This document shows, one piece after another, positions 495 to 13,016 of a DNA stretch of 64,000 nucleotides. Made by a program: the position numbers and the translations under genes. Under the pieces are notes generated by a model. That model searched no databases. It had not been told where the DNA came from and saw only the letters and a list, made by a program, of their open reading frames with translations. This DNA is from a virus: positions 68,077-132,076 of the IMG/VR virus record IMGVR_UViG_3300045988_110853. The stretch is one strand, 5' to 3'. Every line of letters begins with the position of its first letter. Within the stretch, counting starts at the first letter, position 1.

Positions 495-552
495 TTGGTA
501 AAATACACAAATTTAGGAAAATAATTAGTTGTATTTTTAGCTAAATTTCCTA

Positions 553-581: not shown

Positions 582-591
582 GGAAATTCCG

Positions 592-870: not shown

Positions 871-872
871 TT

Positions 873-1064
873 TTAGTTCTCCCCTCTCATTGACCGCTCA
901 TAATTCTCAATCATGCAACGAACCATCATACCGCCGACGGAATAAGAAGGGGCAGGCTTGCCATTCACATAGTCCTTGATGATGATTTTTTCATCTTCGT
1001 TTAACTGGTTAATGCCCTCTTTGATAGCGTTAATGAGTTCCCAATTGTAAGAAGTTTCAAGCAT
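873..1064 (-). CDS. hypothetical protein (63 aa)
   Basis: Start assigned at MLETSYN with an AAAGGAAAGGA ribosome-binding site. The promoter TTGACA-N17-TATAAT at 1095-1123 is embedded in a hairpin. Confidence 0.55.
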   Translation of the reverse strand: MLETSYNWELINAIKEGINQLNEDEKIIIKDYVNGKPAPSYSVGGMMVRCMIENYERSMRGEN

Positions 1065-1094
1065 TTTTATCAATTCCTTTCCTTTGATGGTTTT

Positions 1095-1123
1095 ATTATA
1101 GCACAAGGGGCTTATTTTGTCAA
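1095..1123 (-). promoter_or_regulatory. consensus promoter TTGACA-N17-TATAAT embedded in hairpin 1101-1134
   Basis: The -35 lies in the hairpin loop and the -10 immediately 3' of the stem. Confidence 0.6.
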
Positions 1124-1142
1124 GCCCCTTGTGCTATTTTTT

Positions 1143-1595: not shown

Positions 1596-1625
1596 TTTAA
1601 TTTTCCCCTTTCATTTGATACATTA

Positions 1626-1654
1626 AGTATAGCAGAACAAAAGACTTTTGTCAA
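1626..1654 (-). promoter_or_regulatory. promoter TTGACA-N17-TATACT for the AbrB-like gene
   Basis: Read directly. Confidence 0.6.
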
Positions 1655-1659
1655 GCCTT

Positions 1660-2133
1660 TTATTCAAGATTTTTGCTTTCCGCGACAAAATATTTTGCTT
1701 CATACTGATTTGCGATAGCCTTGACTTTTGCGCTTTCCTTTTGGGTCGCGCAGTAAAAATTGAAAAGCGTATGTTTATCGCTCAATTCAATGTAAGAGTG
1801 TGGGACGTCATGTAAATCAAAATCAATGGTATTAGTGTATTTTGTCGGGACAGTCAGCTCGACTTTCCAAAGTTTATCCTTGCGCGCCTTTTCCTCAATC
1901 CACTTGACAAGGTAAACGCCCACGAAATTACAAACGGCAGTAATAGCCATTTTCAACCAAATAGGCATACCGTCCGCGGAAGTCAGCACAATTACATAGG
2001 AATAAAAACCGTATGTAATAGCATTGATGAAAGATGCGCTAAACTTTCCGCCCTTGACAGTCAAAATGCTTTTGATAGTTGACAGAATCACATTCACCGC
2101 CGTGCAAAGCGCGAACAGAAGAATTGTATTCAT
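1660..2133 (-). CDS. membrane protein (N-terminal TM helices plus a soluble C-terminus), 157 aa
   Basis: Intact ORF with hydrophobic N-terminal segments. The stop is TAA. Its start overlaps the stop of the next gene (ATGA). Confidence 0.55.
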   Translation of the reverse strand: MNTILLFALCTAVNVILSTIKSILTVKGGKFSASFINAITYGFYSYVIVLTSADGMPIWLKMAITAVCNFVGVYLVKWIEEKARKDKLWKVELTVPTKYTNTIDFDLHDVPHSYIELSDKHTLFNFYCATQKESAKVKAIANQYEAKYFVAESKNLE

Positions 2134-2369
2134 TCAATCACCTCAATATCGCAGTAAATACAGTCGGTAATATCGACGTATTCTTCAAAACTCATTCGCT
2201 TATCATCGCGGTGTGTAAAGTCAATGTAAGCATTTTCACCGTGGAGATTGTTTTCTTCATTGTAGGCGTGAGTGGCGTAGTCAAAAGCCTTGATAGCATC
2301 GGCTTCATTATAGACTACAATTTCCTTGACTTCGGGAGCATCATACCAAATAGTATATTTCTTTTTCAT
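2130..2369 (-). CDS. hypothetical protein (79 aa)
   Basis: Start at MKKKYTIWYD with an AAAGGAAAGGG ribosome-binding site. The track start is upstream at a GTG. The stop is TGA. Confidence 0.55.
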   Translation of the reverse strand: MKKKYTIWYDAPEVKEIVVYNEADAIKAFDYATHAYNEENNLHGENAYIDFTHRDDKRMSFEEYVDITDCIYCDIEVIE

Positions 2370-2442
2370 TATTATCACCCTTTCCTTTTTCTATTATAAT
2401 AATATCATATTATAATAGAAATGTCAATAGAGAGTTTTTAAT

Positions 2443-2601
2443 TTACTCTTTTAATTTTTCTAATAGGTCATCAGCACATTCATAGCTGATGCTCCGGCGG
2501 TCGCACTCGTTGGACAAAGGACAACAAGCGCAGTCATTAAAGGTTTCCGTCCAAGAGCGCAACCAGTCAATCAGGCGTAGAGTATCAACTTCTTCATACA
2601 T
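2443..2601 (-). CDS. cysteine-rich small protein (52 aa; ...CACCPLSNECDRR...)
   Basis: Hand-translated. An AAAGGAG ribosome-binding site lies 8 nt upstream. It overlaps the stop of the upstream gene and ends in TAA. Confidence 0.45.
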   Translation of the reverse strand: MYEEVDTLRLIDWLRSWTETFNDCACCPLSNECDRRSISYECADDLLEKLKE

Positions 2602-2938
2602 TGTTTTCAGTCTCCTTTACTCGGACAAAAAAGACCTTGTTATAGATTTTTGTTGCTTTAAGGTCAATCCAAAAATACACATTTCCGCATACTCGATAGA
2701 TTTTACAAGTTTCTCCGCTAACCTTTTTGACTTCCTCAAACTTCTCGGGCGTAGTAGGGTGGAAAATTGTCAGTTTGAGAAACATCGAATAGAAAGTTAA
2801 AGGAACGAACCCGATAATAATAGCAATCCACGCGAGAATGTCAGTTAAGGTATTTCTCCATTCACACCATTCATCAGTAATTGTAGCGAACGCAATACCC
2901 ACACAAAACGCGAGAATCAACCAATACCAAGCTACCAT
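2594..2938 (-). CDS. membrane protein (114 aa)
   Basis: Intact ORF with hydrophobic N-terminal helices and an AAAGGGGGGGA ribosome-binding site. Confidence 0.55.
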   Translation of the reverse strand: MVAWYWLILAFCVGIAFATITDEWCEWRNTLTDILAWIAIIIGFVPLTFYSMFLKLTIFHPTTPEKFEEVKKVSGETCKIYRVCGNVYFWIDLKATKIYNKVFFVRVKETENNV

Positions 2939-2989
2939 TGTTTTATCCCCCCTTTATTTGATGTATACATTTTACCAGATTATGGGAAT

Positions 2990-3166
2990 TTTGTCTATTG
3001 GCAGAATAGCCAAAAATCCGCTCGAAAATTTGTTGAATCTACATCTTGACAAAAACTCGGCGCGCCACAGTCGTTCGCGCGCCGGCCATTTTATCACATT
3101 TAAGGAACTTTGTCAATAGTGAAATTAAACAAAAAAAATCTCCCAAATTTGGGAGATTTTTCATTT
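2990..3166. repeat. intergenic cassette copy B (stem CGGCGCGCC..GGCGCGCCG, covariant with copy A)
   Basis: The stem-loop lies at 3050-3078 and is followed by ggccattttatcac as in copy A. Confidence 0.6.
3131..3166. terminator. hairpin TCTCCCAAATTTGGGAGA with flanking A/T runs
   Basis: Read directly. Confidence 0.6.
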
Positions 3167-3332
3167 AATTTTCTACTGCTTCAAGGTCGGCGAGAATGGG
3201 GATAAGCTTATCCTCAATGAGCGAAACGCGGTTAATCATTTCTTGGTCGGGGGTAGGAAGCTTCTGAATCCCATAACGCGCCATCATACAGACCTTTTCG
3301 ACAACTTCGCTAAGCTTTTCCTTATTTTCCAT
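3165..3332 (-). CDS. hypothetical protein (55 aa)
   Basis: Start at MENKEKL with a TAAGGAGA ribosome-binding site. The stop is TAA and a terminator follows at 3131-3166. Confidence 0.5.
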   Translation of the reverse strand: MENKEKLSEVVEKVCMMARYGIQKLPTPDQEMINRVSLIEDKLIPILADLEAVEN

Positions 3333-3441
3333 TTTTCTATTCTCCTTAAAATAAATTTTTTGGAAAGGGTGGCAGTTGATAGGCTCAACTGCCAAAGCCA
3401 TAGGAAAGGGGGAGAGAAACGCGAACAAATGTTCGGTTTTA

Positions 3442-3681
3442 TCAGGGAATAATCAGTTCCGCATCGTAGACAGGCCGAACCATACAGGGCGCGCCAAAGC
3501 AGTCGAGATTGTAAGTGTCCAAATTGAGAGCGTTCCATTCTTCTGCGCCGGTATTTTCATCAACCACTGACGCAGTTTTGATGTAATAGACGTTTCCGGA
3601 AGCGGGGTCTTGAAAAATCATACCTTCGGGGAGGTCTTCAAATGCAACCATTTTGTTGCTATGCTTAACAGTAATTTTCAT
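3442..3681 (-). CDS. hypothetical protein (79 aa)
   Basis: An AAGGAG ribosome-binding site lies 8 nt upstream of the ATG (MKITVK...). The stop is TGA. Confidence 0.55.
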   Translation of the reverse strand: MKITVKHSNKMVAFEDLPEGMIFQDPASGNVYYIKTASVVDENTGAEEWNALNLDTYNLDCFGAPCMVRPVYDAELIIP

Positions 3682-3686
3682 TTCAT

Positions 3687-4040
3687 TCACTCCTTATTAT
3701 AAAAGCGGTAAGCCCATTCAACGATTTCGTGGCTTGTAGTAGTCCATTCCTTTTTGGGGCTGTCAAACTTTTCCGCGTATTTTTTGACGTAGTCGTTGTA
3801 TTCCATGCGTGCGGTATCGTATGCTCCAATAGCTACAAGCAAGGACTGTTTTGCTTTTTCAGCATCAGAGACGGCTTTCTTGCGGTCTGCGCCCTCGGGG
3901 TAAAGGTCGATTACGCCTAAACGAGTAATGACTTGTGTTGTTTTTTCATACACGCGGTCGCGCTCTTCCCAAACCTCATAGAGCAGTTCGTCCGCGCGAT
4001 TCTCATAGGGATTGAATGGCTTTTTCTTCTTACCGAACAT
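3687..4040 (-). CDS. hypothetical protein (117 aa, MFGKKKKPFNPYENRADELLYEVWEERDRV...)
   Basis: The C-terminal 117 aa of the track ORF 3687..4328 are protein-like. The upstream part runs through intergenic sequence and the stop of the next gene. Confidence 0.5.
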   Translation of the reverse strand: MFGKKKKPFNPYENRADELLYEVWEERDRVYEKTTQVITRLGVIDLYPEGADRKKAVSDAEKAKQSLLVAIGAYDTARMEYNDYVKKYAEKFDSPKKEWTTTSHEIVEWAYRFYNKE

Positions 4041-4368
4041 TTTTCTTTTTCTCCTTTTCTTTCTTGTTCCAAATTCTGTCGAAGAACGCATTTGCGAGAA
4101 CACGCTTGTAAAGGTTATCAGGCATAGGGCGTTCGCCGTGCTTATTTCTCCAAATCGCGGTGATTTTATCAATATCCGCGATATAGGCGGTAATGAGTGT
4201 GCCGTCCGTAGCACTACGAACAAGAAGAACGCCTGTTGTAGTGATAGTGTAGAGGACATCTTCCTCAACGCTGTCGATATATGGCTCACCAATACCGATA
4301 TTGTCATAGATGAAGAACAAGCGGTCAATGCGGTCTTGCGTGGCGTGTTTTGACATTCTGATAAGCAT
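4030..4368 (-). CDS. hypothetical protein (112 aa)
   Basis: Start at MLIRMSK with an AGAAAGAGG ribosome-binding site. A promoter lies at 4406-4434. Confidence 0.55.
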   Translation of the reverse strand: MLIRMSKHATQDRIDRLFFIYDNIGIGEPYIDSVEEDVLYTITTTGVLLVRSATDGTLITAYIADIDKITAIWRNKHGERPMPDNLYKRVLANAFFDRIWNKKEKEKKKNVR

Positions 4369-4405
4369 TTGATTTACCTCTTTCTTTCTCTCTTGGATTG
4401 ATTGT

Positions 4406-4434
4406 ATTATACCATATAGGGAGGGGCTTGTCAA
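4406..4434 (-). promoter_or_regulatory. promoter TTGACA-N17-TATAAT within hairpin GGGAGGGGCTTGTCAAGCCCCT
   Basis: Read directly. Confidence 0.6.
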
Positions 4435-4440
4435 GCCCCT

Positions 4441-4590
4441 TTAATACAATTGTTCCCCATCGTGGTAGCGCTCATATTCCGCTTCAAGGAAGTCGAGAAT
4501 AGTTTCAAAGTCGTCTGCGTCCGCGGGGTCTGCAAAGGTCTTTTCAAGAACTTCGTTAGTGTGTCTATTGTAAACTCGAACCATATCCAT
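4441..4590 (-). CDS. hypothetical acidic protein (49 aa, MDMVRVYNRHTNEVLEKTFADPADADDFETILDFLEAEYERYHDGEQLY)
   Basis: Hand-translated with an AGAAAGAGGTAAG ribosome-binding site. The stop is TAA. Confidence 0.45.
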   Translation of the reverse strand: MDMVRVYNRHTNEVLEKTFADPADADDFETILDFLEAEYERYHDGEQLY

Positions 4591-4659
4591 TTTACTTACC
4601 TCTTTCTTGATTGTATATGTATTATATCATGCGAAAGGGCTTTTGTCAAGCCCTTTTTA

Positions 4660-4866
4660 TCAGAAATGATAATTTCTGATGATGACGTCGAACTTGGGAG
4701 CATATACGGTTTTCCACTGTTCTTCAAGGGTCTTATCATTCGTGCGATATGCTTCCCACGAGACTGCGCCATAGGCGTTGTGCTTGAAAAGCTCGGCATC
4801 ACTGGGCATTTGCTCGGCATAGAGAAGCTGGGTCTTGATAAAAGAATGAATGTTGTAGTTAGTCAT
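4660..4866 (-). CDS. hypothetical protein (68 aa)
   Basis: Start at MTNYNIHS. It has a conserved leader with a GAGGT ribosome-binding site. A promoter TAGACA-N17-TATACT lies at 4906-4934. Confidence 0.5.
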   Translation of the reverse strand: MTNYNIHSFIKTQLLYAEQMPSDAELFKHNAYGAVSWEAYRTNDKTLEEQWKTVYAPKFDVIIRNYHF

Positions 4867-4905
4867 TTTATTTACCTCATCTTTCTGTTCCCTTGGAACA
4901 ATTAT

Positions 4906-4934
4906 AGTATAGCAAATGCTTAGGCATTTGTCTA
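4906..4934 (-). promoter_or_regulatory. promoter TAGACA-N17-TATACT
   Basis: It lies upstream of the conserved leader of gene 4660-4866. Confidence 0.5.
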
Positions 4935-4944
4935 TTGACGGATC

Positions 4945-4974
4945 GCACAAAATTGGGAAAAATAATTTGTGCAA
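4945..4974. promoter_or_regulatory. inverted repeat GCACAAAATT-N9-AATTTGTGCAA (operator-like)
   Basis: Read directly. Confidence 0.4.
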
Positions 4975-4992
4975 ATTTTCGCAACTTTTTGC

Positions 4993-5021
4993 TTGACAAA
5001 TTGCTGGCCCTGTGATATACT
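4993..5021 (+). promoter_or_regulatory. plus-strand promoter TTGACA-N17-TATACT, convergent with the early genes
   Basis: Same architecture as 553-581. A GC hairpin lies at 5029-5055 and a terminator at 5109-5140. Confidence 0.5.
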
Positions 5022-5029
5022 GAAAATTC

Positions 5030-5140
5030 CGGCCGCAGCGTGCGTTGGCGGCCGGCCGAATTATACCACATTGAGATGGTTTTGTCAATAGTCAAATGAA
5101 ACAAAAATTTCAGGCGAGATTTGGTTATCTCGCCTGAAAA
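5030..5140 (+). ncRNA. candidate antisense small RNA of about 105 nt, a paralogue of the 592-700 element
   Basis: Same promoter/hairpin/terminator arrangement as at 592-700. Confidence 0.25.
5109..5140. terminator. hairpin CAGGCGAGAT..ATCTCGCCTG plus AAAA
   Basis: Read directly. Confidence 0.6.
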
Positions 5141-5347
5141 TTATTCGTCCCAAATAGCTCCCGCAATCCAAAAGTATTCATAGCGGAGTTTTGACTGAAT
5201 CGCAAATAAAGAATCTGCGATTTCTCCACCAATTTCCCGGTCATCTGCGACTGAAAGTGTTTGGCTTTCTCGCGCGATTCTTTGCGCCAGCTTTTCAAGG
5301 GCTTCCGCCTGTTCTTTCAAAGCCTGCGGAATAGTTTTTTCATTCAT
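5141..5347 (-). CDS. hypothetical protein (68 aa)
   Basis: Start at MNEKTIP with a GGAAAGGGG ribosome-binding site. The stop is TAA. Confidence 0.5.
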   Translation of the reverse strand: MNEKTIPQALKEQAEALEKLAQRIARESQTLSVADDREIGGEIADSLFAIQSKLRYEYFWIAGAIWDE

Positions 5348-5349
5348 AA

Positions 5350-5694
5350 TCAATTCCCCTTTCCGAAATTAGAAGTTAATTCTAATGTATGTCCGCACTC
5401 GTCGCAATACCAATAGTAATAAACCGTGCCGTATTTACCATGAGAAGCATTTACAAATTTCATTTCATTTCCGCAGATAGAACAATAGCCATCATTCCAC
5501 GCTTTTTTGTCGGCATTATGTTCTGCGATTATCGCGCCCGTCATACCATAGCCAAGAGCGCACGAAATGAGAATACCGACTAACAATCTCACTATTGGGT
5601 GGTGTTTATCCAGATTACACCAGCAGATAAGGCAAACAAATAGTGCCATAATTGCACTAAGGATTCCACCAATAATTAAGAATTCTGCGCTCAT
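5350..5694 (-). CDS. membrane protein with a C-terminal CxxC...CxxC zinc ribbon (114 aa)
   Basis: Start at MSAEFLIIGG with a GGAAAGGGGAAATAAAAATG ribosome-binding site. The sequence contains ...YCSICGNEM...YCDECGH.... Confidence 0.55.
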   Translation of the reverse strand: MSAEFLIIGGILSAIMALFVCLICWCNLDKHHPIVRLLVGILISCALGYGMTGAIIAEHNADKKAWNDGYCSICGNEMKFVNASHGKYGTVYYYWYCDECGHTLELTSNFGKGN

Positions 5695-5696
5695 TT

Positions 5697-5768
5697 TTAT
5701 TTCCCCTTTCCGCATTTAACGCATTGAGCGTGTGTTCCGCACTTTCCATCGCAATAAGGACATTCCAT
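5697..5768 (-). CDS. possible 23-aa zinc-ribbon microprotein (MECPYCDGKCGTHAQCVKCGKGK)
   Basis: Hand-translated with an AAAGGAAAGGGG ribosome-binding site. A promoter lies at 5799-5827. Its stop overlaps the ribosome-binding site of the next gene. Confidence 0.3.
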   Translation of the reverse strand: MECPYCDGKCGTHAQCVKCGKGK

Positions 5769-5798
5769 TGATTTATTCCCCTTTCCTTTGATACATTA

Positions 5799-5827
5799 AG
5801 TATAGCAGAAAAGGGGCTATTTGTCAA
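5799..5827 (-). promoter_or_regulatory. promoter TTGACA-N17-TATACT within a hairpin
   Basis: Read directly. Confidence 0.55.
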
Positions 5828-5846
5828 GCCCCTTTTCTCATTTTTT

Positions 5847-6209
5847 TTATTTTTCTTTTCTGATGGAATAGTAGGCTCTATTCCCTTTCTGCGTGCGGGT
5901 CAACTTTCTGTCAATCCAACAAAGATAACCGCAATACCACGAAATAGTGGAGCAGGAATATTCTTTGCCAGTTTCACGGTAAAGAATAAACTGAATCTCA
6001 GTAGGACGCAGGGGCTTTTCTGCCTTTGAGAGAACATCGAGCATCATGTTTTTCATCATGGTGTTGCGGATTTCCTGTTTCAGCTTCTGCGCTTCCTTGG
6101 CTTCCTGATACTGTAAGCAAGCCCTCTCCGCGTGAATTTTGTCAATCCCCTCGAAAGTGCCATTGTCAAGAAATTTCTTCAAAAGACTATAAGTTTCACC
6201 GTTAATCAT
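5847..6209 (-). CDS. hypothetical protein, possibly a winged-helix DNA-binding regulator (120 aa)
   Basis: Intact ORF with an AAAGGGGAAC ribosome-binding site. A promoter lies at 6241-6269. The C-terminus ...KGNRAYYSI... resembles a wHTH wing. The call is tentative. Confidence 0.5.
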   Translation of the reverse strand: MINGETYSLLKKFLDNGTFEGIDKIHAERACLQYQEAKEAQKLKQEIRNTMMKNMMLDVLSKAEKPLRPTEIQFILYRETGKEYSCSTISWYCGYLCWIDRKLTRTQKGNRAYYSIRKEK

Positions 6210-6240
6210 TTTGTGTTCCCCTTTCTTTTACTATACTTGT

Positions 6241-6269
6241 ATTATATCATCTACTTCTGGATTTGTCAA
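6241..6269 (-). promoter_or_regulatory. promoter TTGACA-N17-TATAAT
   Basis: Read directly. Confidence 0.6.
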
Positions 6270-6309
6270 GGGCTTTTTGGAAAAAGAGGGAAAAATTTTC
6301 CCTCTTTAT

Positions 6310-6582
6310 TTATCCCCAAAAAACCGAAAGAACGCCGTCAATGTAGCTGGTTTTATAACCATAATTCTGCATGATAGTTTTGCAAGCCTGCTTGACGCCC
6401 TTTTCCTTTAATGAAGCAAGAGAACATTCATAAAGTGTTTCTCCCGTTCCTGCCACTCGCTCAATTTCTGGCATGATGTGGTCTTCGATGAACGCCCGCG
6501 CAAGGGCATTATTTTTAGCTTGAATTTCTTTGCGGACTTCTTCGGCTTTGCGCGTCATTTCATAAGCGTATTTAATTTCCAT
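6310..6582 (-). CDS. hypothetical protein (90 aa)
   Basis: Intact ORF with an AAAGGGAG ribosome-binding site. A promoter lies at 6613-6641. Confidence 0.55.
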   Translation of the reverse strand: MEIKYAYEMTRKAEEVRKEIQAKNNALARAFIEDHIMPEIERVAGTGETLYECSLASLKEKGVKQACKTIMQNYGYKTSYIDGVLSVFWG

Positions 6583-6612
6583 TTTGTTTTCTCCCTTTCT
6601 CTTGATGCTTTT

Positions 6613-6641
6613 ATTATAGCATATAGGGCTTGTTTTGTCAA
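6613..6641 (-). promoter_or_regulatory. promoter TTGACA-N17-TATAAT embedded in hairpin 6617-6650
   Basis: Read directly. Confidence 0.6.
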
Positions 6642-6659
6642 GCCCTATATGCTATTTTT

Positions 6660-6968
6660 TTAGCAGTAGGCGAGATTCCCGCGCGCCCAGCCATATACGC
6701 TGATTTGATTGCACGCTTTGCCAATTTCGAGCGCCTGCTTCTTGGTCTGGACTCTCTTGGACTTGTCGATATAGTAGATGCCATTCGCGAACCAAACACC
6801 GCAGTTTCCGCCATATTCCTTGACCGCGTTAATGGCTTCGCGTGCGGTCTTACATTCCACGCCATCGGTAGCAACCTGCCAGCCGGACTTGTAATTGACT
6901 TTCTTGCCATATTTAAGGGTCAGACCGTCGTTTTCAACGAGCTTACGAATGGAACGAATGTTAATCAT
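6660..6968 (-). CDS. hypothetical phage protein (102 aa)
   Basis: Intact ORF with a GGAAAGGGAAAAC ribosome-binding site. The stop is TAA. The antisense track ORF 6630..7016 is rejected. Confidence 0.55.
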   Translation of the reverse strand: MINIRSIRKLVENDGLTLKYGKKVNYKSGWQVATDGVECKTAREAINAVKEYGGNCGVWFANGIYYIDKSKRVQTKKQALEIGKACNQISVYGWARGNLAYC

Positions 6969-7059
6969 AATGTTTTCCCTTTCCGGTTTGTTTGGGTTTT
7001 CCTTCCCTTACTGTGATTATAGTATAGCACCGATTCGGGATTTTGTCTATTGGCAGAAT

Positions 7060-7089
7060 ACACAAACTTTCACCATAAAAATTGTGCAA
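7060..7089. promoter_or_regulatory. inverted repeat ACACAAA-N14-ATTGTGCAA (operator-like)
   Basis: Read directly. Confidence 0.35.
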
Positions 7090-7165
7090 ATGGTCTATTG
7101 ACAGCAAATTCCGGCCGCGCCTGGCGTGCACGGCCGGCCGAATGAATATGCAAAATGGAGCGTAT

Positions 7166-7208
7166 AAAAATTCAGCGGATTTTTATGCAATCCGCTGAAT
7201 TTTCATTT
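7166..7208. terminator. hairpin ATTCAGCGGAT..ATCCGCTGAAT with flanking A/T runs
   Basis: Read directly. Confidence 0.6.
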
Positions 7209-7215
7209 CAAATTT

Positions 7216-7455
7216 TTAACCATCAACATAAATGATAAGAATATCGCCCTTAGCTTTCAAACCAGTGACAGGCAATCCCAGCACCCATTCTTCACTTGCA
7301 CCCAAAAAATTGCCATTCAAAGTCATATGACCCTTGCGGTCTTTGAGATAACGGCCATCAGTGTTTTCATTTATCACTTCGACGCCGTTCCCCTCATAGA
7401 ACATCAACGCACCTTTTACCGTGCCAATCACATTTTTAACCATGCTTAAAGTCAT
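7216..7455 (-). CDS. hypothetical protein (79 aa)
   Basis: Start at MTLSMVKN. Its leader of about 45 nt is identical to that of gene 4660-4866. A promoter TTGACT-N17-TATACT lies at 7486-7514. Confidence 0.5.
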   Translation of the reverse strand: MTLSMVKNVIGTVKGALMFYEGNGVEVINENTDGRYLKDRKGHMTLNGNFLGASEEWVLGLPVTGLKAKGDILIIYVDG

Positions 7456-7485
7456 TTTGTTTACCTCATCTTTCTGTTCCCCTTG

Positions 7486-7514
7486 GAACAATTATAGTAT
7501 AGCATAGGGTATAG
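7486..7514 (-). promoter_or_regulatory. promoter TTGACT-N17-TATACT
   Basis: Read directly. Confidence 0.55.
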
Positions 7515-7532
7515 CAAAAGTCAATAGTCAAA

Positions 7533-7575
7533 ATGGTAAAAAGAATCGGCAGGATTTTGTGTATCCTGCCGATTC
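7533..7575. terminator. hairpin GAATCGGCAGGAT..ATCCTGCCGATTC plus TTTT
   Basis: Read directly. Confidence 0.6.
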
Positions 7576-7577
7576 TT

Positions 7578-7772
7578 TTAGTCTTCCCAACTCTCGATGA
7601 CTTCGCCGGTCATAGCGTCGATAATGTCAACCGAAAGAACATTATCTGCGTCGGCGAACTTCTGACCGAGGGCGTATGCGTTTTCCTGTCCCGCGACAGA
7701 CACTTCATAGCGATAGCGGTTGTTATCACCAGCCTTGTAGTTGTAGTAGTTAACAGAAACGATAAATAACAT
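7578..7772 (-). CDS. hypothetical protein (64 aa)
   Basis: An AAAGGGGAAC ribosome-binding site precedes it. A promoter lies at 7803-7830. The stop is TAA. Confidence 0.5.
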   Translation of the reverse strand: MLFIVSVNYYNYKAGDNNRYRYEVSVAGQENAYALGQKFADADNVLSVDIIDAMTGEVIESWED

Positions 7773-7802
7773 TTTTTTGTTCCCCTTTCTTTTTATACTC
7801 TT

Positions 7803-7830
7803 ATTATAGCACGGTTTTAGGATTTGTCAA
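7803..7830 (-). promoter_or_regulatory. promoter TTGACA-N16-TATAAT
   Basis: Read directly. Confidence 0.55.
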
Positions 7831-7854
7831 TAGTTTTTTTGAAAAAAGTTTGAA

Positions 7855-7892
7855 AAAAAATAAGGGCGTTTCCGCCCTTATTTTTCATAAAC
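7855..7892. terminator. hairpin AAGGGCG-TTTC-CGCCCTT with flanking A/T runs
   Basis: Read directly. Confidence 0.6.
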
Positions 7893-8135
7893 GATAATGT
7901 TGTTGCCTAACTTTTCAACGCGAGAATCTTCACAAAAGTGATAGGTAAAATCCGCGTAAAGATGTTTGAGAAATTCGCGTCTCCATTCGCGGGACTTCGG
8001 CTCTAATTCAAAAAGAATGTAAAGCGTTTCCTCTAATCGGTCGAGAAAGTTTTCAGTGTCCGCGATGTTGAACTTGCCCGCGAGCTTTGGCGTGGGGTTA
8101 TAAGCGCTAATAGTGAGAATGTTGTAAGTTGTCAT
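7878..8135 (-). CDS. hypothetical protein (85 aa)
   Basis: An AAAGGAGA ribosome-binding site precedes it. A promoter lies at 8166-8194. Confidence 0.5.
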   Translation of the reverse strand: MTTYNILTISAYNPTPKLAGKFNIADTENFLDRLEETLYILFELEPKSREWRREFLKHLYADFTYHFCEDSRVEKLGNNIIVYEK

Positions 8136-8165
8136 GGAAAAATCTCCTTTTCATTTGATGTTTTT

Positions 8166-8194
8166 ATTATACACGATAGTATGGAACTTGTCAA
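8166..8194 (-). promoter_or_regulatory. promoter TTGACA-N17-TATAAT
   Basis: Read directly. Confidence 0.6.
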
Positions 8195-8199
8195 TACTT

Positions 8200-8240
8200 A
8201 AAATAGAAAAAAGAGAAGTTTTTTCAACTTCTCTTTTTCA
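8200..8240. terminator. hairpin AGAGAAGTT..AACTTCTCT plus TTTT
   Basis: Read directly. Confidence 0.55.
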
Positions 8241-8328
8241 GCTTCTTTTCTGCCCATTCAATCAGCGCGCCCGCGGTGATTGTGCCAACGTAAATGAAAA
8301 GTAAAACTAAACCATCATGCAAACTCAT
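8224..8328 (-). CDS. possible 34-aa membrane microprotein (MSLHDGLVLLFIYVGTITAGALIEWAEKKLKKRS)
   Basis: A GGAGG ribosome-binding site lies 9 nt upstream. It has a single hydrophobic helix. A terminator follows. Confidence 0.35.
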   Translation of the reverse strand: MSLHDGLVLLFIYVGTITAGALIEWAEKKLKKRS

Positions 8329-8329
8329 T

Positions 8330-8458
8330 TTAATATTCCTCCACATACTCTGTAAAGACAAGCTCCCAGTCCGGGCCGAGATCCGGAGTTTTGCAGTATA
8401 ATGACTGTCGAATGTCATGCTCATTAGTGATTTTGTTGATAAACTCGAATTCATACAT
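8330..8458 (-). CDS. hypothetical small protein (42 aa, MYEFEFINKITNEHDIRQSLYCKTPDLGPDWELVFTEYVEEY)
   Basis: Hand-translated with a GAAAAGGAG ribosome-binding site. A promoter lies at 8490-8518. The track ORF 8224..8454 in another frame is probably an artefact. Confidence 0.4.
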   Translation of the reverse strand: MYEFEFINKITNEHDIRQSLYCKTPDLGPDWELVFTEYVEEY

Positions 8459-8489
8459 TGTTGTTATCTCCTTTTCTTATTGTATCTAC

Positions 8490-8518
8490 ATTATAGCAGA
8501 CAACAGGGCATTTGTCAA
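8490..8518 (-). promoter_or_regulatory. promoter TTGACA-N17-TATAAT
   Basis: Read directly. Confidence 0.6.
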
Positions 8519-8524
8519 TACCAT

Positions 8525-8562
8525 TTATAAAAAAATGTACGAGGTTTAATCCTCGTACATTT
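8525..8562. terminator. hairpin TGTACGAGG..CCTCGTACA with flanking A/T runs
   Basis: Read directly. Confidence 0.55.
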
Positions 8563-8842
8563 CCATTAACGATTTGATTTTTTCAATCGCATTTTCAATT
8601 TCTTCTACATAGTCTGCTTGTTCTTCGCTTGCGCGCATTGCCTGTTCATATGCGTCATAGATGGCTTCGCACTGTTCACGGGTATATTCTTCTTCTGGTG
8701 CGTGCTCCATGGCGACGACTGCCGCCCACGCGAGCGTTTCCGCGTCATCGAGGTTATCAGCCTTTTCCGTGGCAGTGGTAAGTTCGTGTTCGAGGCGCGT
8801 TTTTTCGAGCGAGAGGGTCTTGAGAAATTCGGTATTAGTCAT
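8546..8842 (-). CDS. acidic hypothetical protein (98 aa)
   Basis: An AAAAGGAGA ribosome-binding site precedes it. A promoter lies at 8875-8902 and a terminator at about 8520-8560. Confidence 0.55.
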   Translation of the reverse strand: MTNTEFLKTLSLEKTRLEHELTTATEKADNLDDAETLAWAAVVAMEHAPEEEYTREQCEAIYDAYEQAMRASEEQADYVEEIENAIEKIKSLMEMYED

Positions 8843-8874
8843 TGTGGTGTATCTCCTTTTCTTTTGATACCTCT

Positions 8875-8902
8875 ATTATAGCACTTCTGGACTGAATGTC
8901 AA
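8875..8902 (-). promoter_or_regulatory. promoter TTGACA-N16-TATAAT
   Basis: Read directly. Confidence 0.55.
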
Positions 8903-9180
8903 TAGGTTTTTGAAAAAAATATTTATTCATCAGGGCTGTATAAATATTCATGTATAAATATTCATTTTCGGGTGCATAAAGGCGACTGGCATAATGCACA
9001 AATTCGTTTGAAAATTTTTGTGCAACTTGCCTATTGCAAAACTCGGCGCGCTGCGGCCCACAGCGCGCCGGCCAAATGTATATGTATGATTATTCATGTA
9101 TATTCATTGCATATTCATTGTATATTTATTCATACATAATATGCAAAAATAGAGAGAGACTTAATAAGCCTCTCTCCACA
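8893..9180. repeat. intergenic cassette copy E, with flanking TATTCAT heptamer repeats
   Basis: The stem-loop lies at 9044-9073. Seven TATTCAT copies lie at 8925-8970 and 9090-9135. Confidence 0.6.
8996..9025. promoter_or_regulatory. inverted repeat GCACAAA-N14-TTTGTGCAA (operator-like)
   Basis: Read directly. Confidence 0.4.
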
Positions 9181-9526
9181 CCTTGATTATTTCATCATCT
9201 GCTATATCATCTGTGTCATTGTCGTTTATCCACAAAAGCAGAAAATCATTATCGTCAATGGTCATATTCTCAACTTCCCATTGGTTGCCGCGTTCGTCCA
9301 GTAGCGTGATAGTGTTACCATTTCGGGAAGCGACCTCTGCGCCGATAAAGCGTATGCTTCCTCTCTCTGTGCCAGCGCCACACCATTCATCTAATGCGGT
9401 GAGGTCGTAGGACTGCGGCGCTTCCTCGCAGGCTTCCGCGGTTGCGTGGTCATGGAATGAGCCGAAGAAAGACACGGAGAGAATGATGGCAATGACCATG
9501 GTGATGATTTTGGAAATGTTTTTCAT
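9161..9526 (-). CDS. secreted or membrane-anchored protein (121 aa; N-terminal signal/TM, acidic C-terminus)
   Basis: Intact ORF with an AGAAAGAGG ribosome-binding site. It has a hydrophobic N-terminus. Confidence 0.55.
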   Translation of the reverse strand: MKNISKIITMVIAIILSVSFFGSFHDHATAEACEEAPQSYDLTALDEWCGAGTERGSIRFIGAEVASRNGNTITLLDERGNQWEVENMTIDDNDFLLLWINDNDTDDIADDEIIKVWREAY

Positions 9527-9548
9527 TTTGTTTTACCTCTTTCTTACT

Positions 9549-9692
9549 TTATAGGTTAGTAGCGATAGTGACAACAGCAATAAGCATGAGCGTGCTTGAG
9601 ATAGCTTTACCTATGCTCTTGCTATCTATGGCATAGACAAAATTATATGCGCTTATAGCGGTAAGCACAATAATAGCGGCAATGATAGACAT
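9549..9692 (-). CDS. possible 47-aa membrane protein
   Basis: Hand-translated with an AGAGGGGAG ribosome-binding site. The sequence is two hydrophobic segments. Confidence 0.35.
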   Translation of the reverse strand: MSIIAAIIVLTAISAYNFVYAIDSKSIGKAISSTLMLIAVVTIATNL

Positions 9693-9722
9693 GGCATATG
9701 CTCCCCTCTTTGAGCGAGTGGG

Positions 9723-10196
9723 TTAAACCCACTCGCTGAATAACTCACTGATGAAGTCATCGTGTACGTCATCAGGCAGTTGATCGATGGTGCACTCATA
9801 GGTGCTTACCACGGTAAGCGATGAGCCATTCTCAAGGTTCTCGCGCTCAAACTTATCACGCTCGCCAGACGAGAGGAAAAATGCGGTATAATCGTAAGTG
9901 TCTTCTCCATCATTGATGGAATAGTCCACCACCTTAAAGCGTGTTTTGTTCCAGAGGTTCGCTATGATGGACAAATCCATGGCCAGCTCTTCCTCGCGGC
10001 GGACAGCTTCGAGAGACGCCTTATACTTGCGCCATGCGGCTACCGTAAAGTCTCTTATGCCGCACCCAATAAGACAATGGTATTCCTCTAAGTCTTTGAT
10101 AACCAGTTTACGTCCCTCGCGCACCATATCCCAAGCATCTTCCGCCATTGCGTTGATGGTGACAGCATCATATTTATGCAAGCCCTGAATTTTCAT
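9723..10196 (-). CDS. hypothetical protein (157 aa)
   Basis: Intact ORF with a GGGAAGGG ribosome-binding site. A hairpin at 9712-9735 overlaps the stop. Confidence 0.55.
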   Translation of the reverse strand: MKIQGLHKYDAVTINAMAEDAWDMVREGRKLVIKDLEEYHCLIGCGIRDFTVAAWRKYKASLEAVRREEELAMDLSIIANLWNKTRFKVVDYSINDGEDTYDYTAFFLSSGERDKFERENLENGSSLTVVSTYECTIDQLPDDVHDDFISELFSEWV

Positions 10197-10277
10197 TGTG
10201 TAGCCCTTCCCGCGCTTTTTGCGCTATCGTGTTATATGTAGGTATGTTCCCCCTGTGGGGAGTGAGGGCTTGCGCCC

Positions 10278-10571
10278 TCACTTTGCAATCTTTGCGGTAA
10301 CGGAAGCCGCACGCGGCGCGCCGACTTTCTTGTACTTATCAAAGCACTCGGCATAGAGTTTCGGCGCCTTGTTGCGGAACATCACCGTGTCGAGCGTTTC
10401 AGTAGCCTTGCCGCCCTTGCCAACAATAACAGTAAACTTATTGTAAGTAAAGGTAACGCTTTCGCCGTTAGCTTCCTCGCGGGCTTCTGCCTTGAGTAAT
10501 TCTAATTGTTCCTTGAGCACGTCTATCTGCGCGGAAAGCTCACACATCTTTTTAATTTTGTTGTTCGTCAT
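10278..10571 (-). CDS. hypothetical protein with an N-terminal coiled coil (97 aa)
   Basis: Start at MTNNKIKK with an AAGAGGA ribosome-binding site. The stop is TGA. A hairpin at 10261-10282 overlaps the stop. Confidence 0.55.
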   Translation of the reverse strand: MTNNKIKKMCELSAQIDVLKEQLELLKAEAREEANGESVTFTYNKFTVIVGKGGKATETLDTVMFRNKAPKLYAECFDKYKKVGAPRAASVTAKIAK

Positions 10572-10666
10572 TTTGTAAATCCTCTTTTCATGTATTTTGC
10601 TGTTCGGTGTTCCGCCGTTCAGCATGGTTACATGGTAGCAGATTCAGCCACGGGATACAATTGACG

Positions 10667-10712
10667 GATTGCACAAAGATTTGTTTTGTACGGGGCGGGC
10701 TTTTGTGCAATC
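10667..10712. promoter_or_regulatory. perfect 11-bp inverted repeat GATTGCACAAA-N24-TTTGTGCAATC (candidate operator) at the early/late junction
   Basis: Read directly. Related half-sites GCACAAA/TTTGTGCAA also lie at 4945-4974, 7060-7089, 8996-9025 and 503-538. Confidence 0.45.
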
Positions 10713-10999
10713 TACCGCCGGGCGGCACCCTTGCATCATACCTTTGCATTTTTATTCACTCAAAAATGAATAAAACCTGCATGGGGCGGGGTGTATTTCG
10801 GGAAAAATAAATTTTTATTTATTATTTTTTCTTTTGCCTGGTCAAAACACAATCTAAATCAATTTTCAATTTCAAATTACGGATTAAAACAATAATCTTA
10901 AATTACGATTTTTTCTTTCTGCCCCTTTTAGGCTTCTCTCTCCACATAAGGGTATATAATCCAGAAGTAGCAGAATAAGTAGCTTTCTGCTGATACTTT

Positions 11000-11907: not shown

Positions 11908-11936
11908 TTGACAGAAAAAATTTTTTCAAGTATAAT
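11908..11936 (+). promoter_or_regulatory. consensus promoter TTGACA-N17-TATAAT at the head of the plus-strand late/structural operon
   Basis: Read directly. A GGAGGT ribosome-binding site and ATG 11961 follow. Confidence 0.6.
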
Positions 11937-11960: not shown

Positions 11961-13016
11961 ATGATAAAACTTGATTATTCTTTACAAACTCCAGAAGAAA
12001 GAAATCAATTAGTCGAACAAATTTTGGCTGATAATCCAGATCCGCCTGAGAAATATTTAGAAATTTTAGCAGACTATTTGGTTCTTTGTATGGAGAAACA
12101 AGAAAAAAAGGAGAAAAAATTATTAACTGATAACCGTATGGCAACAGTTAATAAACGTGAAACTTCTTTTGAAGGTCTTGTTTCCCAACTTGAAAATGGC
12201 GAAGATGGAATTTATAATTTAATTACAGATAATAGAAATACAATATTTCAACCACATATTACAATTACAAAAAAAGATTTAGAAGAAATACCAAGTTTAA
12301 ATTAGTTAAGAGAAGCCATTAATGTTTGGGAGGCTAAATTAAAAGTAACAGAAGGCAAGGATGCTTTTGTTATTAAAAAGGCTCTTATTGAAATGCGTAA
12401 AGATTAGTATGTTATGAAAAATGCTTATCGTCGTCCAATAGTGCCTACAAAATTAACCAGATCAAAGTCTTATATTCCATTAGATGATAAAACATTTATT
12501 TTTGATGATGATGGTTTTCCCATTCCCGATGGAATTAGTTTATTAAGACCTGAAATATGTTCTGCGGTTTTATGTAATTATTCCCGATTAAAGCAAGATA
12601 GTTGGGGCGAATATGATAAAGATTTATGGTATTTAATGGAGGATTTTGATAAGCTTTGTGATAAAGCCTTAGCTAATTATCCTCTTTATGATAGAATCGT
12701 TGAATATAAAATTGATGGTTTACAAAATATTGACATTCAAGAGAAAATACAAATGGAATTTGGTATTAAACATAGTCTTGAATATATTTCAAGTTTATGG
12801 CGTAATAAAATTCCAAAATTAATTGCTTCGACTGCGGAAGATGAATATTTAGATAATTATTATTTAAATGTTGAAAAAGGTAAATATAAAAAATGTAGTC
12901 GTTGTGGTAAAATAAAATTAGCTCATAATAAATATTTTAGTAAAAATAAAACAAGTAAAGATGGCTTTTATAGTATTTGTAAAAGTTGTCGAAATTCTAA
13001 GGCCAAAAAATCTTAA
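11961..13016 (+). CDS. hypothetical protein with a C-terminal CxxC...CxxC zinc ribbon (351 aa; 2 in-frame TAG)
   Basis: It follows a consensus promoter at 11908-11936 and a GGAGGT ribosome-binding site. Track ORFs 11961..12305 and 12414..13016 lie in the same frame and are joined by TAG codons. The real stop is TAA. Confidence 0.6.

What the first reader, a model, noticed from the sequence alone, without database searches (positions are those of the whole stretch)
8925..9135. Tandem TATTCAT heptamer array flanking the GC hairpin in cassette E
Seven copies of (A)TATTCAT lie on either side of the 9044-9073 stem-loop. Three lie upstream at about 8925-8970. Four lie downstream at about 9090-9135. 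The spacing is about 10-11 bp, so they fall on one face of the helix. This resembles iterons or a multimeric regulator binding array. It is present in only one of the five cassettes. That copy could be a replication origin or partition site rather than a promoter region.
Basis: seen in the sequence. Interest (0 to 1): 0.5.

Follow-up and report, generated by a model that had tools for sequence, protein, structure and literature searches.

The report
Phased TATTCAT operator-like repeat array
Seven TATTCAT repeats around a GC hairpin in a gut phage's early-gene region are real and conserved, and they most likely form a docking array for a DNA-binding regulator just upstream of an early promoter, not the phage's replication origin or partition site.

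Summary
Seven exact TATTCAT copies, all on the + strand, lie at 8924, 8945 and 8959 and at 9091, 9101, 9112 and 9127, on either side of the 9043-9071 GC hairpin. No other heptamer in the 64-kb window clusters as tightly.

The window is a roughly 97-kb TAG-recoded tailed phage. The array sits in its hypervariable early region, in the gap between the terminator of a 121-aa gene and the consensus sigma70-type promoter of a 98-aa gene.

The roughly 245-bp module is optional. Six of 16 near-identical IMG/VR relatives have it. The other ten carry a perfect clostridial Rex-box consensus palindrome in exactly that slot, at the same distance from the -35 hexamer.

The repeat unit is an 11-12-bp near-palindrome (ATGAAT|ATTCAT). 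The left array is the best-conserved segment of the locus. The right array varies in copy number (2-6) and orientation but keeps the motif.

Best reading: a cooperative binding array for an unidentified dimeric regulator (confidence 0.5). An origin or partition role is not supported: the module is dispensable, no Rep or Par genes are nearby, and the GC-skew minimum lies at 11.8 kb.

The parts
8924..8965 (+). Left array: three TATTCAT units (8924-8930, 8945-8951, 8959-8965). The last two are part of a perfect 14-bp tandem repeat, TGTATAAATATTCA x2 (8937-8964). The array lies at about -56 to -97 relative to the start site of the 98-aa gene promoter.
   Evidence: It is 96-100% identical in 17 related copies, more conserved than the flanking gene.
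9076..9138 (+). Right array: a degenerate inverted unit ATGTATA (9076-9082), then four direct units at 9091, 9101, 9112 and 9127 (TGATTATTCAT, TGTATATTCAT, TGCATATTCAT, TATTTATTCAT). The array is bracketed by the 9-bp inverted repeat TATGTATGA/TCATACATA.
   Evidence: At least 8 alleles in relatives differ in copy number (2-6) and unit orientation.
9043..9071 (.). GC hairpin of cassette E. An 11-bp stem, followed on the - strand by GAGUUUUGC.
   Evidence: Relatives carry three hairpin alleles with compensatory stem changes.
8995..9024 (.). Inner inverted repeat TGCACAAA-N14-TTTGTGCA, between the left array and the hairpin. It is also present in cassettes C and D.
   Evidence: (I6).
8903..8923 (-). 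A/T-rich UP-element-like tract (TAGGTTTTTGAAAAAAATATT on the + strand) between the -35 hexamer and the first TATTCAT unit.
   Evidence: Read from the sequence. The same tract occurs in the distant relative L038. The match to the UP-element consensus rests on my own knowledge.
8875..8902 (-). Sigma70-type promoter of the 98-aa gene: TTGACA-16-TATAAT, 12/12 match, with TG before the -10.
8546..8842 (-). Downstream gene: an acidic 98-aa helical protein with no family assignment.
9149..9179 (-). Intrinsic terminator of the upstream 121-aa gene. It forms the right boundary of the module.
   Evidence: (z = -5.5).
9161..9526 (-). Upstream gene: a 121-aa protein with an N-terminal hydrophobic segment. 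Homologs occur in siblings both with and without the module.
7142..7152 (-). Solitary inverted unit TGCATATTCAT next to the cassette D hairpin (7108-7144).
   Evidence: Conserved in L012, L016 and L042.

Best explanation
The repeats are a cooperative binding array for a dimeric, sequence-specific DNA-binding protein. Its identity is unknown, and it could be encoded by the host or the phage. Each unit is an 11-12-bp near-palindrome (A-T-R-n-A-T-A-T-T-C-A-T, ideal form ATGAAT|ATTCAT), the size of one dimer site. In the right array, successive units are about one helical turn apart, which would put bound dimers on one face of the DNA.

The array occupies the regulatory slot that exists in every early intergenic region of this phage family, between the upstream gene's terminator and the UP element and -35 of the next strong sigma70-type early promoter. 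The left array starts 21 bp from the -35, at about -56 to -97. From there it would modulate RNA polymerase recruitment at the 98-aa gene promoter. The right array sits on the hairpin flank where other cassettes carry either a promoter or a Rex box. It would add binding sites, and perhaps bridge to the left array across the hairpin.

Shown: the sequence anatomy, the conservation pattern, and the allelic equivalence with a Rex-operator consensus. Inferred: that a protein binds, which protein it is, and whether it represses or activates.
For: (1) The cluster is far beyond chance.
(2) The unit logo extends to T-R-n-A-TATTCAT. Position -4 is an invariant T and the 3' flank is variable. This makes a near-palindrome, perfect (ATGAATATTCAT) in L042-type alleles.
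(3) Allelic slot. Ten near-identical siblings lack the module and carry TTGTTAATTTTTTAACAA between the same terminator and promoter, 22 nt from TGTCAA. This is a 0-mismatch match to the clostridial Rex-box consensus TTGTTAANNNNTTAACAA (PMC5367854). The window's first unit is 21 nt from its TGTCAA.
(4) In relatives, some GC hairpins have a Rex-like box on the right flank, where cassettes D and E have ATGAATA units.
(5) More distant relatives have other arrays of 11-bp period next to GC hairpins. In L038 they are built from Rex half-sites, and the same locus holds 8 Rex-like boxes against 0.02 expected. In L021, 4+4 Rex-like boxes flank the last hairpin.
(6) Selection. The left array is 98-100% identical in the six relatives found without bias, where the adjacent gene is 88-93% identical. 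Between the window and L042 the right array is only 65% alignable and its flank is 61-72% identical, yet it keeps 4-5 exact units of the same motif.
(7) The arrays have no RNA structure signal (z = -0.6 to -0.8), and the motif switches strand between alleles. Both point to a duplex-DNA function.
Against: No binding protein was identified. None of about 30 early proteins has a recognisable HTH or RHH domain, apart from one AbrB/MazE-domain protein (1143-1595) that also occurs in siblings without the module. The 157-aa gene (9723-10196) that co-occurs with the module is acidic, and its confident model (pLDDT 89) matches no DNA-binding fold. The left-array spacings (21 and 14 bp) are not all in helical phase. 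A site at -56 to -97 is unusual for a simple repressor. The right array tolerates mutated units (L227) and inversions, so the constraint on each unit is weak. Eleven of the 17 comparison copies were retrieved using the left-array sequence itself, which biases their conservation figures. Module presence is also confounded with haplotype block structure.
Confidence: 0.5

Rival explanations
1. The array is a neutral or nearly neutral AT-rich minisatellite. It arose by replication slippage and local template switching from one hairpin-adjacent unit (as seen in cassette D) and has no function of its own.
For: The right array shows the hallmarks of slippage. Copy number ranges from 2 to 6, with perfect 11-bp tandem runs in L007 and L226. 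There are local inversions, and L227 has mutated units. Cassette D has a single unit at the same place. Unrelated genomes contain many TATTCAT tandem repeats.
Against: The left array is the most conserved segment of the locus. The right array keeps the same motif as the left array even though its flanks have diverged by about 30-40%. The slot is occupied by a bona fide operator consensus in siblings.
Confidence: 0.15
2. The array is a DNA-level decoy or nucleoprotein insulator. It titrates a host DNA-binding regulator, or builds a protein roadblock that works with the GC hairpin to insulate early cassettes, rather than regulating the adjacent promoter.
For: The arrays are associated with GC hairpins across the family. 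In L038 and L021 they are far larger than any promoter would need: about 25 units over 470 bp, and 8 boxes over 850 bp. Their units match host-regulator consensus sequences (Rex) or half-sites. In the window, the heptamer equals an ARG-box half-site, with 4 sites at <=1 mismatch against 0.9 expected.
Against: Seven sites is a small sponge. In siblings the equivalent element is a single box at a fixed promoter distance, which looks like ordinary regulation. The ARG-box match is at chance level at <=3 mismatches and lacks the canonical box pairing.
Confidence: 0.15
3. The array is an iteron-type replication origin. An initiator binds the repeats and opens the adjacent AT-rich DNA.
For: There are direct repeats in two clusters, AT-rich surroundings and a nearby structure-forming element. 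Motifs differ between lineages, as expected for iteron/initiator co-evolution.
Against: The module is absent from 10 of 16 near-identical siblings that keep both flanking genes. No initiator-like gene is nearby. The skew minimum is at 11.8 kb. The units are 11 bp and near-palindromic, unlike typical 17-22-bp iterons (my own knowledge). Relatives have several such arrays per genome.
Confidence: 0.06
4. The array is a centromere-like partition site, resembling R1 parC (ParMRC) or tubC (TubZRC).
For: Two clusters of repeats of about 11 bp flanking a central segment resemble R1 parC, which has 5+5 11-bp iterons around a 39-bp promoter core, bound by one ParR dimer per iteron (PMC2241845).
Against: No ParM, ParR, ParA or TubZ-like gene is adjacent or anywhere in the early region. 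The central segment holds a GC hairpin, not the promoter. The module is dispensable. The genome looks like that of a lytic-type tailed phage with a host-takeover early region.
Confidence: 0.05
5. The array is a packaging or DNA-entry signal, such as a pac-type terminase site or an injection-pause site like the phage T5 injection-stop region.
For: The 3+4 repeats around a central site recall the 4+3 hexamers of the P1 pac site (my own knowledge). The array lies 1.7 kb from a family-conserved noncoding element in which two contigs end.
Against: The module is dispensable in siblings. It is about 5 kb from the terminase genes. No evidence for genome ends at this site was found.
Confidence: 0.04

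Closest known systems
Rex operator (Rex box, clostridial consensus TTGTTAANNNNTTAACAA) upstream of promoters
   Same: It occupies the identical intergenic slot in sibling phages, at the same 20-23-bp distance from the -35. It is a palindromic dimer site, and in relatives it occurs singly, in tandem and next to GC hairpins.
   Different: The sequence is different, and there is no Rex box in the window. Here the site is iterated 3+4 times with an 11-12-bp unit, and the binder is unknown.
R1 parC / ParR, two sets of five 11-bp iterons (PMC2241845)
   Same: Repeats with a period of about 11 bp in two clusters flank a central segment. The implied stoichiometry is one dimer per unit, and R1 parC doubles as a promoter operator.
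   Different: There are no parM or parR genes. The central segment is a GC hairpin of about 125 bp rather than a 39-bp promoter core. The units are near-palindromic and change orientation between alleles. The module is optional.
Omega-repressor heptad arrays of plasmid pSM19035 (my own knowledge, not checked here)
   Same: Heptad units in variable number and in direct or inverted orientation lie upstream of promoters and are bound cooperatively by dimers.
   Different: The omega heptads are contiguous (7-bp period, WATCACW), whereas here the period is 10-11 bp or more. No ribbon-helix-helix gene was found.
ARG boxes of ArgR/AhrC (TNTGAATWWWWATTCANW; PMC5291005)
   Same: The heptamer ATGAATA/TATTCAT equals an ARG half-site. 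Four 14-mers of the form TGTAT-WWWW-ATTCA occur in the module, and one 18-mer has a single mismatch.
   Different: There is no canonical pair of boxes 2-3 bp apart. Matches at <=3 mismatches are at chance level in the window. L042-type right arrays lack the N4-spaced inverted halves.
Promoter-early stem-loop (PeSL) cassettes of T4-type phages (my own knowledge)
   Same: Small early genes are each flanked by a conserved promoter and stem-loop, in a hyperplastic region that is shuffled between close relatives. A crossover in L015 lies exactly at the -35.
   Different: PeSLs are not described with phased operator-like arrays or with 80-90% GC hairpins.

Membership tests
Iteron-type replication origin | Indispensable cis site, conserved among close relatives | tested here: not met
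   10 of 16 informative relatives with >=97% sigma identity lack the whole module but keep both flanking genes.
Iteron-type replication origin | Cognate initiator gene overlapping or adjacent | tested here: not met
   Pfam and PHROG scans of about 30 early proteins found no Rep, O or DnaA-like family.
Iteron-type replication origin | Strand-compositional (GC-skew) switch at the site | tested here: not met
   The cumulative skew minimum is at about 11.8 kb, where transcription diverges. There is no inflection at 8.9-9.1 kb. Skew in phages largely tracks transcription, so this is weak evidence.
Iteron-type replication origin | Initiation of DNA synthesis at the site | not testable with these tools
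   Needs marker-frequency or 2-D gel mapping.
ParMRC-type centromere (parC) | Arrays of direct repeats immediately upstream of a parM-parR operon, with the par promoter between or next to them | tested here: not met
   The downstream gene is an acidic 98-aa protein with no family. No ORF over 213 aa exists in the early region, and there are no actin-like or RHH hits. The defining features are taken from PMC2241845 and PMC9426499.
ParMRC-type centromere (parC) | Two clusters of repeats of about 10-20 bp bound cooperatively | tested here: inconclusive
   Two clusters exist (3+4) and the right one has a 10-11-bp period. Binding was not testable.
Transcription-factor operator array in an early-promoter upstream slot | Fixed position relative to a promoter | tested here: met
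   The first unit is 21 nt upstream of the -35 of a 12/12 consensus promoter. The position is kept in all 17 related copies, including L015, where the downstream gene is replaced.
Transcription-factor operator array in an early-promoter upstream slot | Unit with dyad symmetry of dimer-site size | tested here: met
   The logo is T-R-n-A-TATTCAT. The perfect 12-bp palindrome ATGAATATTCAT occurs in L042, L006 and L016-type alleles.
Transcription-factor operator array in an early-promoter upstream slot | Slot demonstrably used for operators in homologous genomes | tested here: met
   A perfect Rex-box consensus sits in the same slot in 10 siblings, 20-23 nt from the -35.
Transcription-factor operator array in an early-promoter upstream slot | A protein binds and changes transcription | not testable with these tools
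   Needs EMSA or footprinting and reporter assays.
ARG box (ArgR/AhrC operator) | 18-bp palindrome TNTGAATWWWWATTCANW | tested here: inconclusive
   One 1-mismatch site lies in the right array (9117-9134), and four more have 2-3 mismatches. At <=1 mismatch there are 6 hits against 0.9 expected. At <=3 mismatches there are 119 against 118 expected.
ARG box (ArgR/AhrC operator) | Tandem pair of boxes separated by 2-3 bp (my own knowledge of E. coli operators) | tested here: not met
   Centre-to-centre distances are 14 bp (left) and 36 bp (right).
Structured RNA / sRNA | Conserved secondary structure, or a match to a known family | tested here: not met
   No Rfam hit at gathering threshold. The arrays fold no better than shuffled sequence. 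The motif changes strand between alleles.

The most novel reading that the evidence does not exclude
The TATTCAT array may be one version of a family-wide, undescribed type of phage early-region element: a GC hairpin flanked by lineage-specific arrays of operator sites or half-sites for host metabolic regulators. Siblings and relatives use perfect Rex boxes or Rex half-site arrays. The window uses units that look like ARG-box or ArsR-type operator half-sites. On this reading, these gut phages would wire host-takeover genes to the host's physiological state, or would sponge host regulators, and would swap the sensed regulator by exchanging modules.
Probability: 0.15. Interest if true: 0.7.

Novelty: new variant of a known kind. 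Interest (0 to 1): 0.4.

Why it matters
If the array is a regulator docking site, near-identical gut phages differ in which regulator controls the same early promoter: a Rex-type box in ten siblings, the TATTCAT array in this lineage. That would be strain-level rewiring of host-takeover gene control by swapping cis modules. The module also gives a compact, testable handle (about 245 bp) for finding the regulator and the host of an uncultivated TAG-recoded phage family. Finally, it removes a false candidate for the replication origin.

Tried and rejected
(1) Scanning GTDB genomes for three phased TATTCAT units gave 120 or more unrelated tandem repeats with no homology to the window, so it gave no clue to the host.

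(2) A cognate binder in the co-varying gene block. The 157-aa gene 9723-10196 occurs in every module-bearing genome and in no module-less sibling. However, it lies in the same haplotype block, it is acidic, its family is tiny and unannotated, and its confident model matches no DNA-binding fold.

(3) The AbrB/MazE-domain protein (1143-1595) as binder. It is also present in module-less siblings.

(4) An RNA-level role. There is no Rfam match and no structure signal, and the motif flips strand between alleles.

(5) A late or phage-sigma promoter motif. Late intergenic regions contain nothing TATTCAT-like.

(6) A sigma70 promoter within the right array. The best candidate (TTGCAT-18-TACAAT on the - strand) has a 3/6 match at the -35 and was not called by the scan.

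(7) Small ORFs crossing the module. They have no ribosome-binding site and run through the hairpin, and the inversions in relatives would destroy them.

(8) Resemblance to a DnaA box. TTATTCATA against TTATNCACA was compared by eye only; position 8 differs in every unit, and I did not pursue it.

(9) Megablast against the phage collection found no close cultured relative.

(10) I considered a wedge-model DNA curvature calculation but did not run it, because I could not verify the parameters.

Full report
**Context.** The window is part of a tailed phage. From about 12 kb to 64 kb, genes run on the + strand at about 30% GC. They form long ORFs only if TAG is read as a sense codon: 2973, 2568 and 1149 aa, against a maximum of 396 aa under the standard code. 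This block opens with a sigma-factor gene (11961-13016, phrog_5767, E = 9e-55), followed by the large terminase and the portal. Positions 1 to about 10.9 kb are different. GC is about 40%, the code is standard, and small genes lie on the - strand. Most of these genes have their own near-consensus sigma70-type promoter (CCTATTGACAAA-N17-TGnTATAAT), a Shine-Dalgarno site and an intrinsic terminator. Five GC-rich hairpins (80% GC or more) lie about 2 kb apart in this early region; these are the 'cassettes' A to E. IMG/VR holds 475 contigs that encode a relative of the sigma factor. Contig lengths of about 97 kb, or up to twice that, suggest a genome of roughly 97 kb. Some related contigs are labelled human gut metagenome.

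**The observation.** Seven exact TATTCAT copies, all on the + strand, start at 8924, 8945 and 8959 and at 9091, 9101, 9112 and 9127. They flank the hairpin with stem 9043-9053/9061-9071. No other heptamer in the 64-kb window reaches more than 4 copies in 215 bp, and 100 Markov simulations gave maxima of 3-5. TRF reports a perfect 14-bp tandem repeat (TGTATAAATATTCA x2) on the left and an 11-bp period x4.2 on the right. One further inverted unit abuts the cassette D hairpin (7142-7152), and a degenerate inverted unit (ATGTATA, 9076-9082) abuts the E hairpin.

**Anatomy of the intergenic region.** The repeats lie in the 318-bp gap between two - strand genes, 9161-9526 (121 aa) and 8546-8842 (98 aa). 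Read in the direction of transcription, the order is:
- the terminator of the 121-aa gene (9179-9149, z = -5.5);
- the right array;
- the GC hairpin, followed by GAGUUUUGC;
- an inner inverted repeat (9024-8995);
- the left array;
- an A/T tract that matches the UP-element pattern (8923-8903);
- a 12/12 consensus promoter with an extended -10 (TTGACA 8902-8897, TATAAT 8880-8875);
- the ribosome-binding site and start codon.

The left units therefore lie at about -56 to -97, and the first one begins 21 nt from the -35 hexamer.

**Presence and absence in close relatives.** Sixteen IMG/VR relatives with at least 97% sigma identity reach far enough upstream to be informative. Six carry the module (L002, L006, L007, L015, L016, L042). 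Ten lack all of it, roughly 8903-9147, but keep homologs of both flanking genes. An essential origin, pac site or centromere would not be expected to be dispensable in this way.

**What fills the slot instead.** In those ten siblings the short spacer between the same terminator and the promoter contains TTGTTAATTTTTTAACAA, 22 nt from the -35 hexamer. This is a zero-mismatch instance of the clostridial Rex-box consensus TTGTTAANNNNTTAACAA (PMC5367854). A second identical box sits 20 nt from the -35 of the next promoter downstream. Rex-like boxes are common in the family:
- L038 has 8 at <=1 mismatch, against 0.02 expected.
- The L021-L028 loci have 8-15 each.
- In L021, 4+4 boxes flank the last GC hairpin within an 850-bp noncoding stretch.
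- Several GC hairpins have a Rex box on their right flank (L005, L010, L014, L017, L042). This is the position the ATGAATA units hold in cassettes D and E.

The window itself has no Rex box. The TATTCAT array is therefore an allelic alternative to a recognisable transcription-factor operator, at the same distance from the promoter.

**The unit and its variation.** An exact-match metagenome scan brought the total to 18 module copies. Aligning the 30 distinct units gives T-R-n-A-TATTCAT, with an invariant T at position -4 and a variable 3' side. This is a near-palindrome of ATGAAT|ATTCAT, and the perfect 12-mer occurs in several alleles. The left array always has three units. The right array has at least eight alleles, where > marks a direct unit and < an inverted one: >>>>, >>>>>>, >>>, >>, <><>>>, ><<>>>, <<><, <<<<, <<<><. 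Spacing is mostly 10-11 bp. The window (- strand) and L042 (+ strand) share the 19-mer ATGAATATGCAATGAATAT, so part of the array has actually been inverted. The 9-bp inverted repeat bracketing it (TATGTATGA/TCATACATA) could have mediated this.

**Evidence for selection.** Between the window and L042, identities are as follows:

| Segment | Identity |
|---|---|
| Promoter, left array and inner repeat | 99.5% |
| Neighbouring 98-aa gene | 88.9% |
| GC hairpin | 88.9% |
| Right array (alignable) | 65% |
| Terminator plus 121-aa gene | 72% |
| Next genes (9549-10196) | 61% |

Across the six relatives found through the sigma gene, the left array is 98-100% identical. The 98-aa gene is 88-93% identical in the five of them that keep it. 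The right array sits in the diverged block, yet still carries 4-5 exact copies of the same motif as the left array. That is hard to explain without selection for a shared binder, although slippage-driven homogenisation contributes. The other eleven copies were retrieved using the left-array sequence, so their conservation figures are biased.

**Other lineages.** More distant relatives carry different arrays next to GC hairpins. Those with a clear tandem period are TGTTCACAATT (period 11, L037-L040), GTATTAGTAGTA (period 11, L066-L070), TGTTAAATTTT (period 11, L059) and ATTATGTGCTATTT (period 14, L018); L047 has looser TATTGTGT repeats. In L038 the unit is a Rex half-site (TTCACAA/TTGTGAA) repeated directly every 11 bp, in either orientation, at four places within 10 kb. 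Several arrays per genome and lineage-specific motifs fit a set of regulator sites better than a single origin.

**Tests of the origin and partition ideas.** The cumulative GC-skew minimum is at about 11.8 kb, where leftward early and rightward late transcription diverge. Nothing happens at 9 kb. Pfam and PHROG scans of about 30 early proteins found no initiator, ParA/B, ParM/R or TubZ/R. The only DNA-binding hits are an AbrB/MazE domain (1143-1595, E = 3e-10) and a sub-threshold SASP-like match (873-1106). R1 parC has 5+5 11-bp iterons around a 39-bp promoter core, with one ParR dimer per iteron, and it also acts as the operator (PMC2241845). It is the closest architectural analogue. The defining gene context is missing here.

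**Search for the binder.** The 47-aa and 157-aa genes at 9549-10196 occur in every module-bearing genome that extends that far and in none of the ten siblings. They lie in the same haplotype block, so this link is confounded. The 157-aa protein is acidic and its family is tiny and unannotated. Its confident model (pLDDT 89) is a helical hairpin plus an alpha/beta domain with no significant PDB match. The AbrB-like gene is also present in module-less siblings.

Two sequence leads remain. First, the heptamer equals an ARG-box half-site (TNTGAATWWWWATTCANW, PMC5291005). One 18-mer in the right array has a single mismatch, and hits at <=1 mismatch are enriched (6 against 0.9 expected). But hits at <=3 mismatches are at chance level, and the canonical pairing of two boxes is absent. 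Second, an unrelated metagenome contig (L213) has the same 21-mer just upstream of an ArsR-family HTH gene (HTH_5, E = 5e-8), in an operator-like position. Neither lead identifies the protein.

**Conclusion.** The array is real and under constraint. It is best read as an iterated operator-type binding array in the upstream slot of an early promoter, paired with a second array on the hairpin flank. It belongs to an optional module that alternates with a Rex-type box in sibling phages. Protein binding, the protein's identity and the direction of regulation are all inferred. A mostly neutral slippage array (especially the right half), a decoy or insulator role, and an origin, centromere or packaging role remain possible, in decreasing order of likelihood.

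Noticed in passing
window 11961-64000 versus 1-10900: The late module forms long ORFs only with TAG read as sense (60 in-frame TAGs in one 2973-aa ORF). The early region uses the standard code and has about 40% GC, against about 30% in the late region. The sigma-factor gene heading the late block itself contains 2 TAG codons but has a consensus sigma70-type promoter (TTGACA-17-TATAAT at about 11908-11936).
   Followed up: partly
window 553-646 (cassette A) and 4994-5088 (cassette C): Consensus sigma70-type promoters on both strands face into the GC hairpin from about 6-10 nt away. They would produce short convergent transcripts that begin with the hairpin. Cassette B keeps only the - strand promoter, and cassettes D and E have none. 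The hairpin stems co-vary (CCGGCCG/CGGCCGG against GGCGCGC/GCGCGCC) while the loops are not conserved.
   Followed up: partly
L004 7594-7611 and 8018-8035; L038 4087-8193; L021 6821-7610; also L005, L008-L014, L017, L022-L028, L037, L039, L040: Perfect or 1-mismatch matches to the Rex-operator consensus (TTGTKAANNNNTTMACAA) recur in the early regions of relatives. They sit 20-23 nt upstream of the -35 hexamers, in tandem at 28-bp spacing, or flanking GC hairpins. L038 has 8 against 0.02 expected. A quick literature search found no report of Rex boxes on phage early promoters.
   Followed up: partly
window 10780-10920: A family-conserved noncoding element (GGGGTGTATTTCGGGAAAAA ... AAATCAATTTTCAATTTCAAATTACGG, the latter tandemly repeated 2 to 4 or more times in relatives) lies at the border between the 40%-GC variable region and the 30%-GC core. 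Two long IMG/VR contigs (L001, L003) end inside its tandem repeat. It is a better candidate than the TATTCAT array for an essential cis site or a genome terminus.
   Followed up: partly
window 1143-1595 (-) and 873-1106 (-): One early protein has an N-terminal AbrB/MazE (SpoVT-AbrB) DNA-binding domain (E = 3e-10). Its neighbour has a weak, sub-threshold match to alpha/beta-type small acid-soluble spore proteins. Together with the promoters and Shine-Dalgarno sites, this points to a spore-forming Firmicute host.
   Followed up: no
window 28706-37627 and 51640-59346 (+): With TAG read as sense there are two giant ORFs. By eye, the 2973-aa one looks like a tape-measure protein (coiled-coil with hydrophobic segments) and the 2568-aa one like a tail-fibre or host-recognition protein. 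Neither was scanned against family libraries.
   Followed up: no
L213 about 6060-6372 (unrelated metagenome contig): The 21-mer TATTCATGTATAAATATTCAT of the left array also occurs, as ATGTAAATATTCATGTATAAATATTCATGTAT, about 100 nt upstream of a gene whose N-terminus matches the ArsR-family HTH (HTH_5, E = 5e-8). This is an operator-like position in an unrelated genome.
   Followed up: partly
L038 2950-3315 (-): In the L038 lineage, a gene with a T5orf172 (GIY-YIG-related) domain (E = 5e-4, just above the Pfam cut-off) lies directly next to one of the hairpin-plus-array elements (2770-2900).
   Followed up: no
window 10743-10772: A further inverted pair, TTTATTCAC-N7-ATGAATAAA, includes an ARG-box-like 18-mer with one mismatch (TTTGCATTTTTATTCACT). 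It lies just left of the conserved noncoding element and is present in the module-bearing genomes only, degenerate in L015, L016 and L042.
   Followed up: partly
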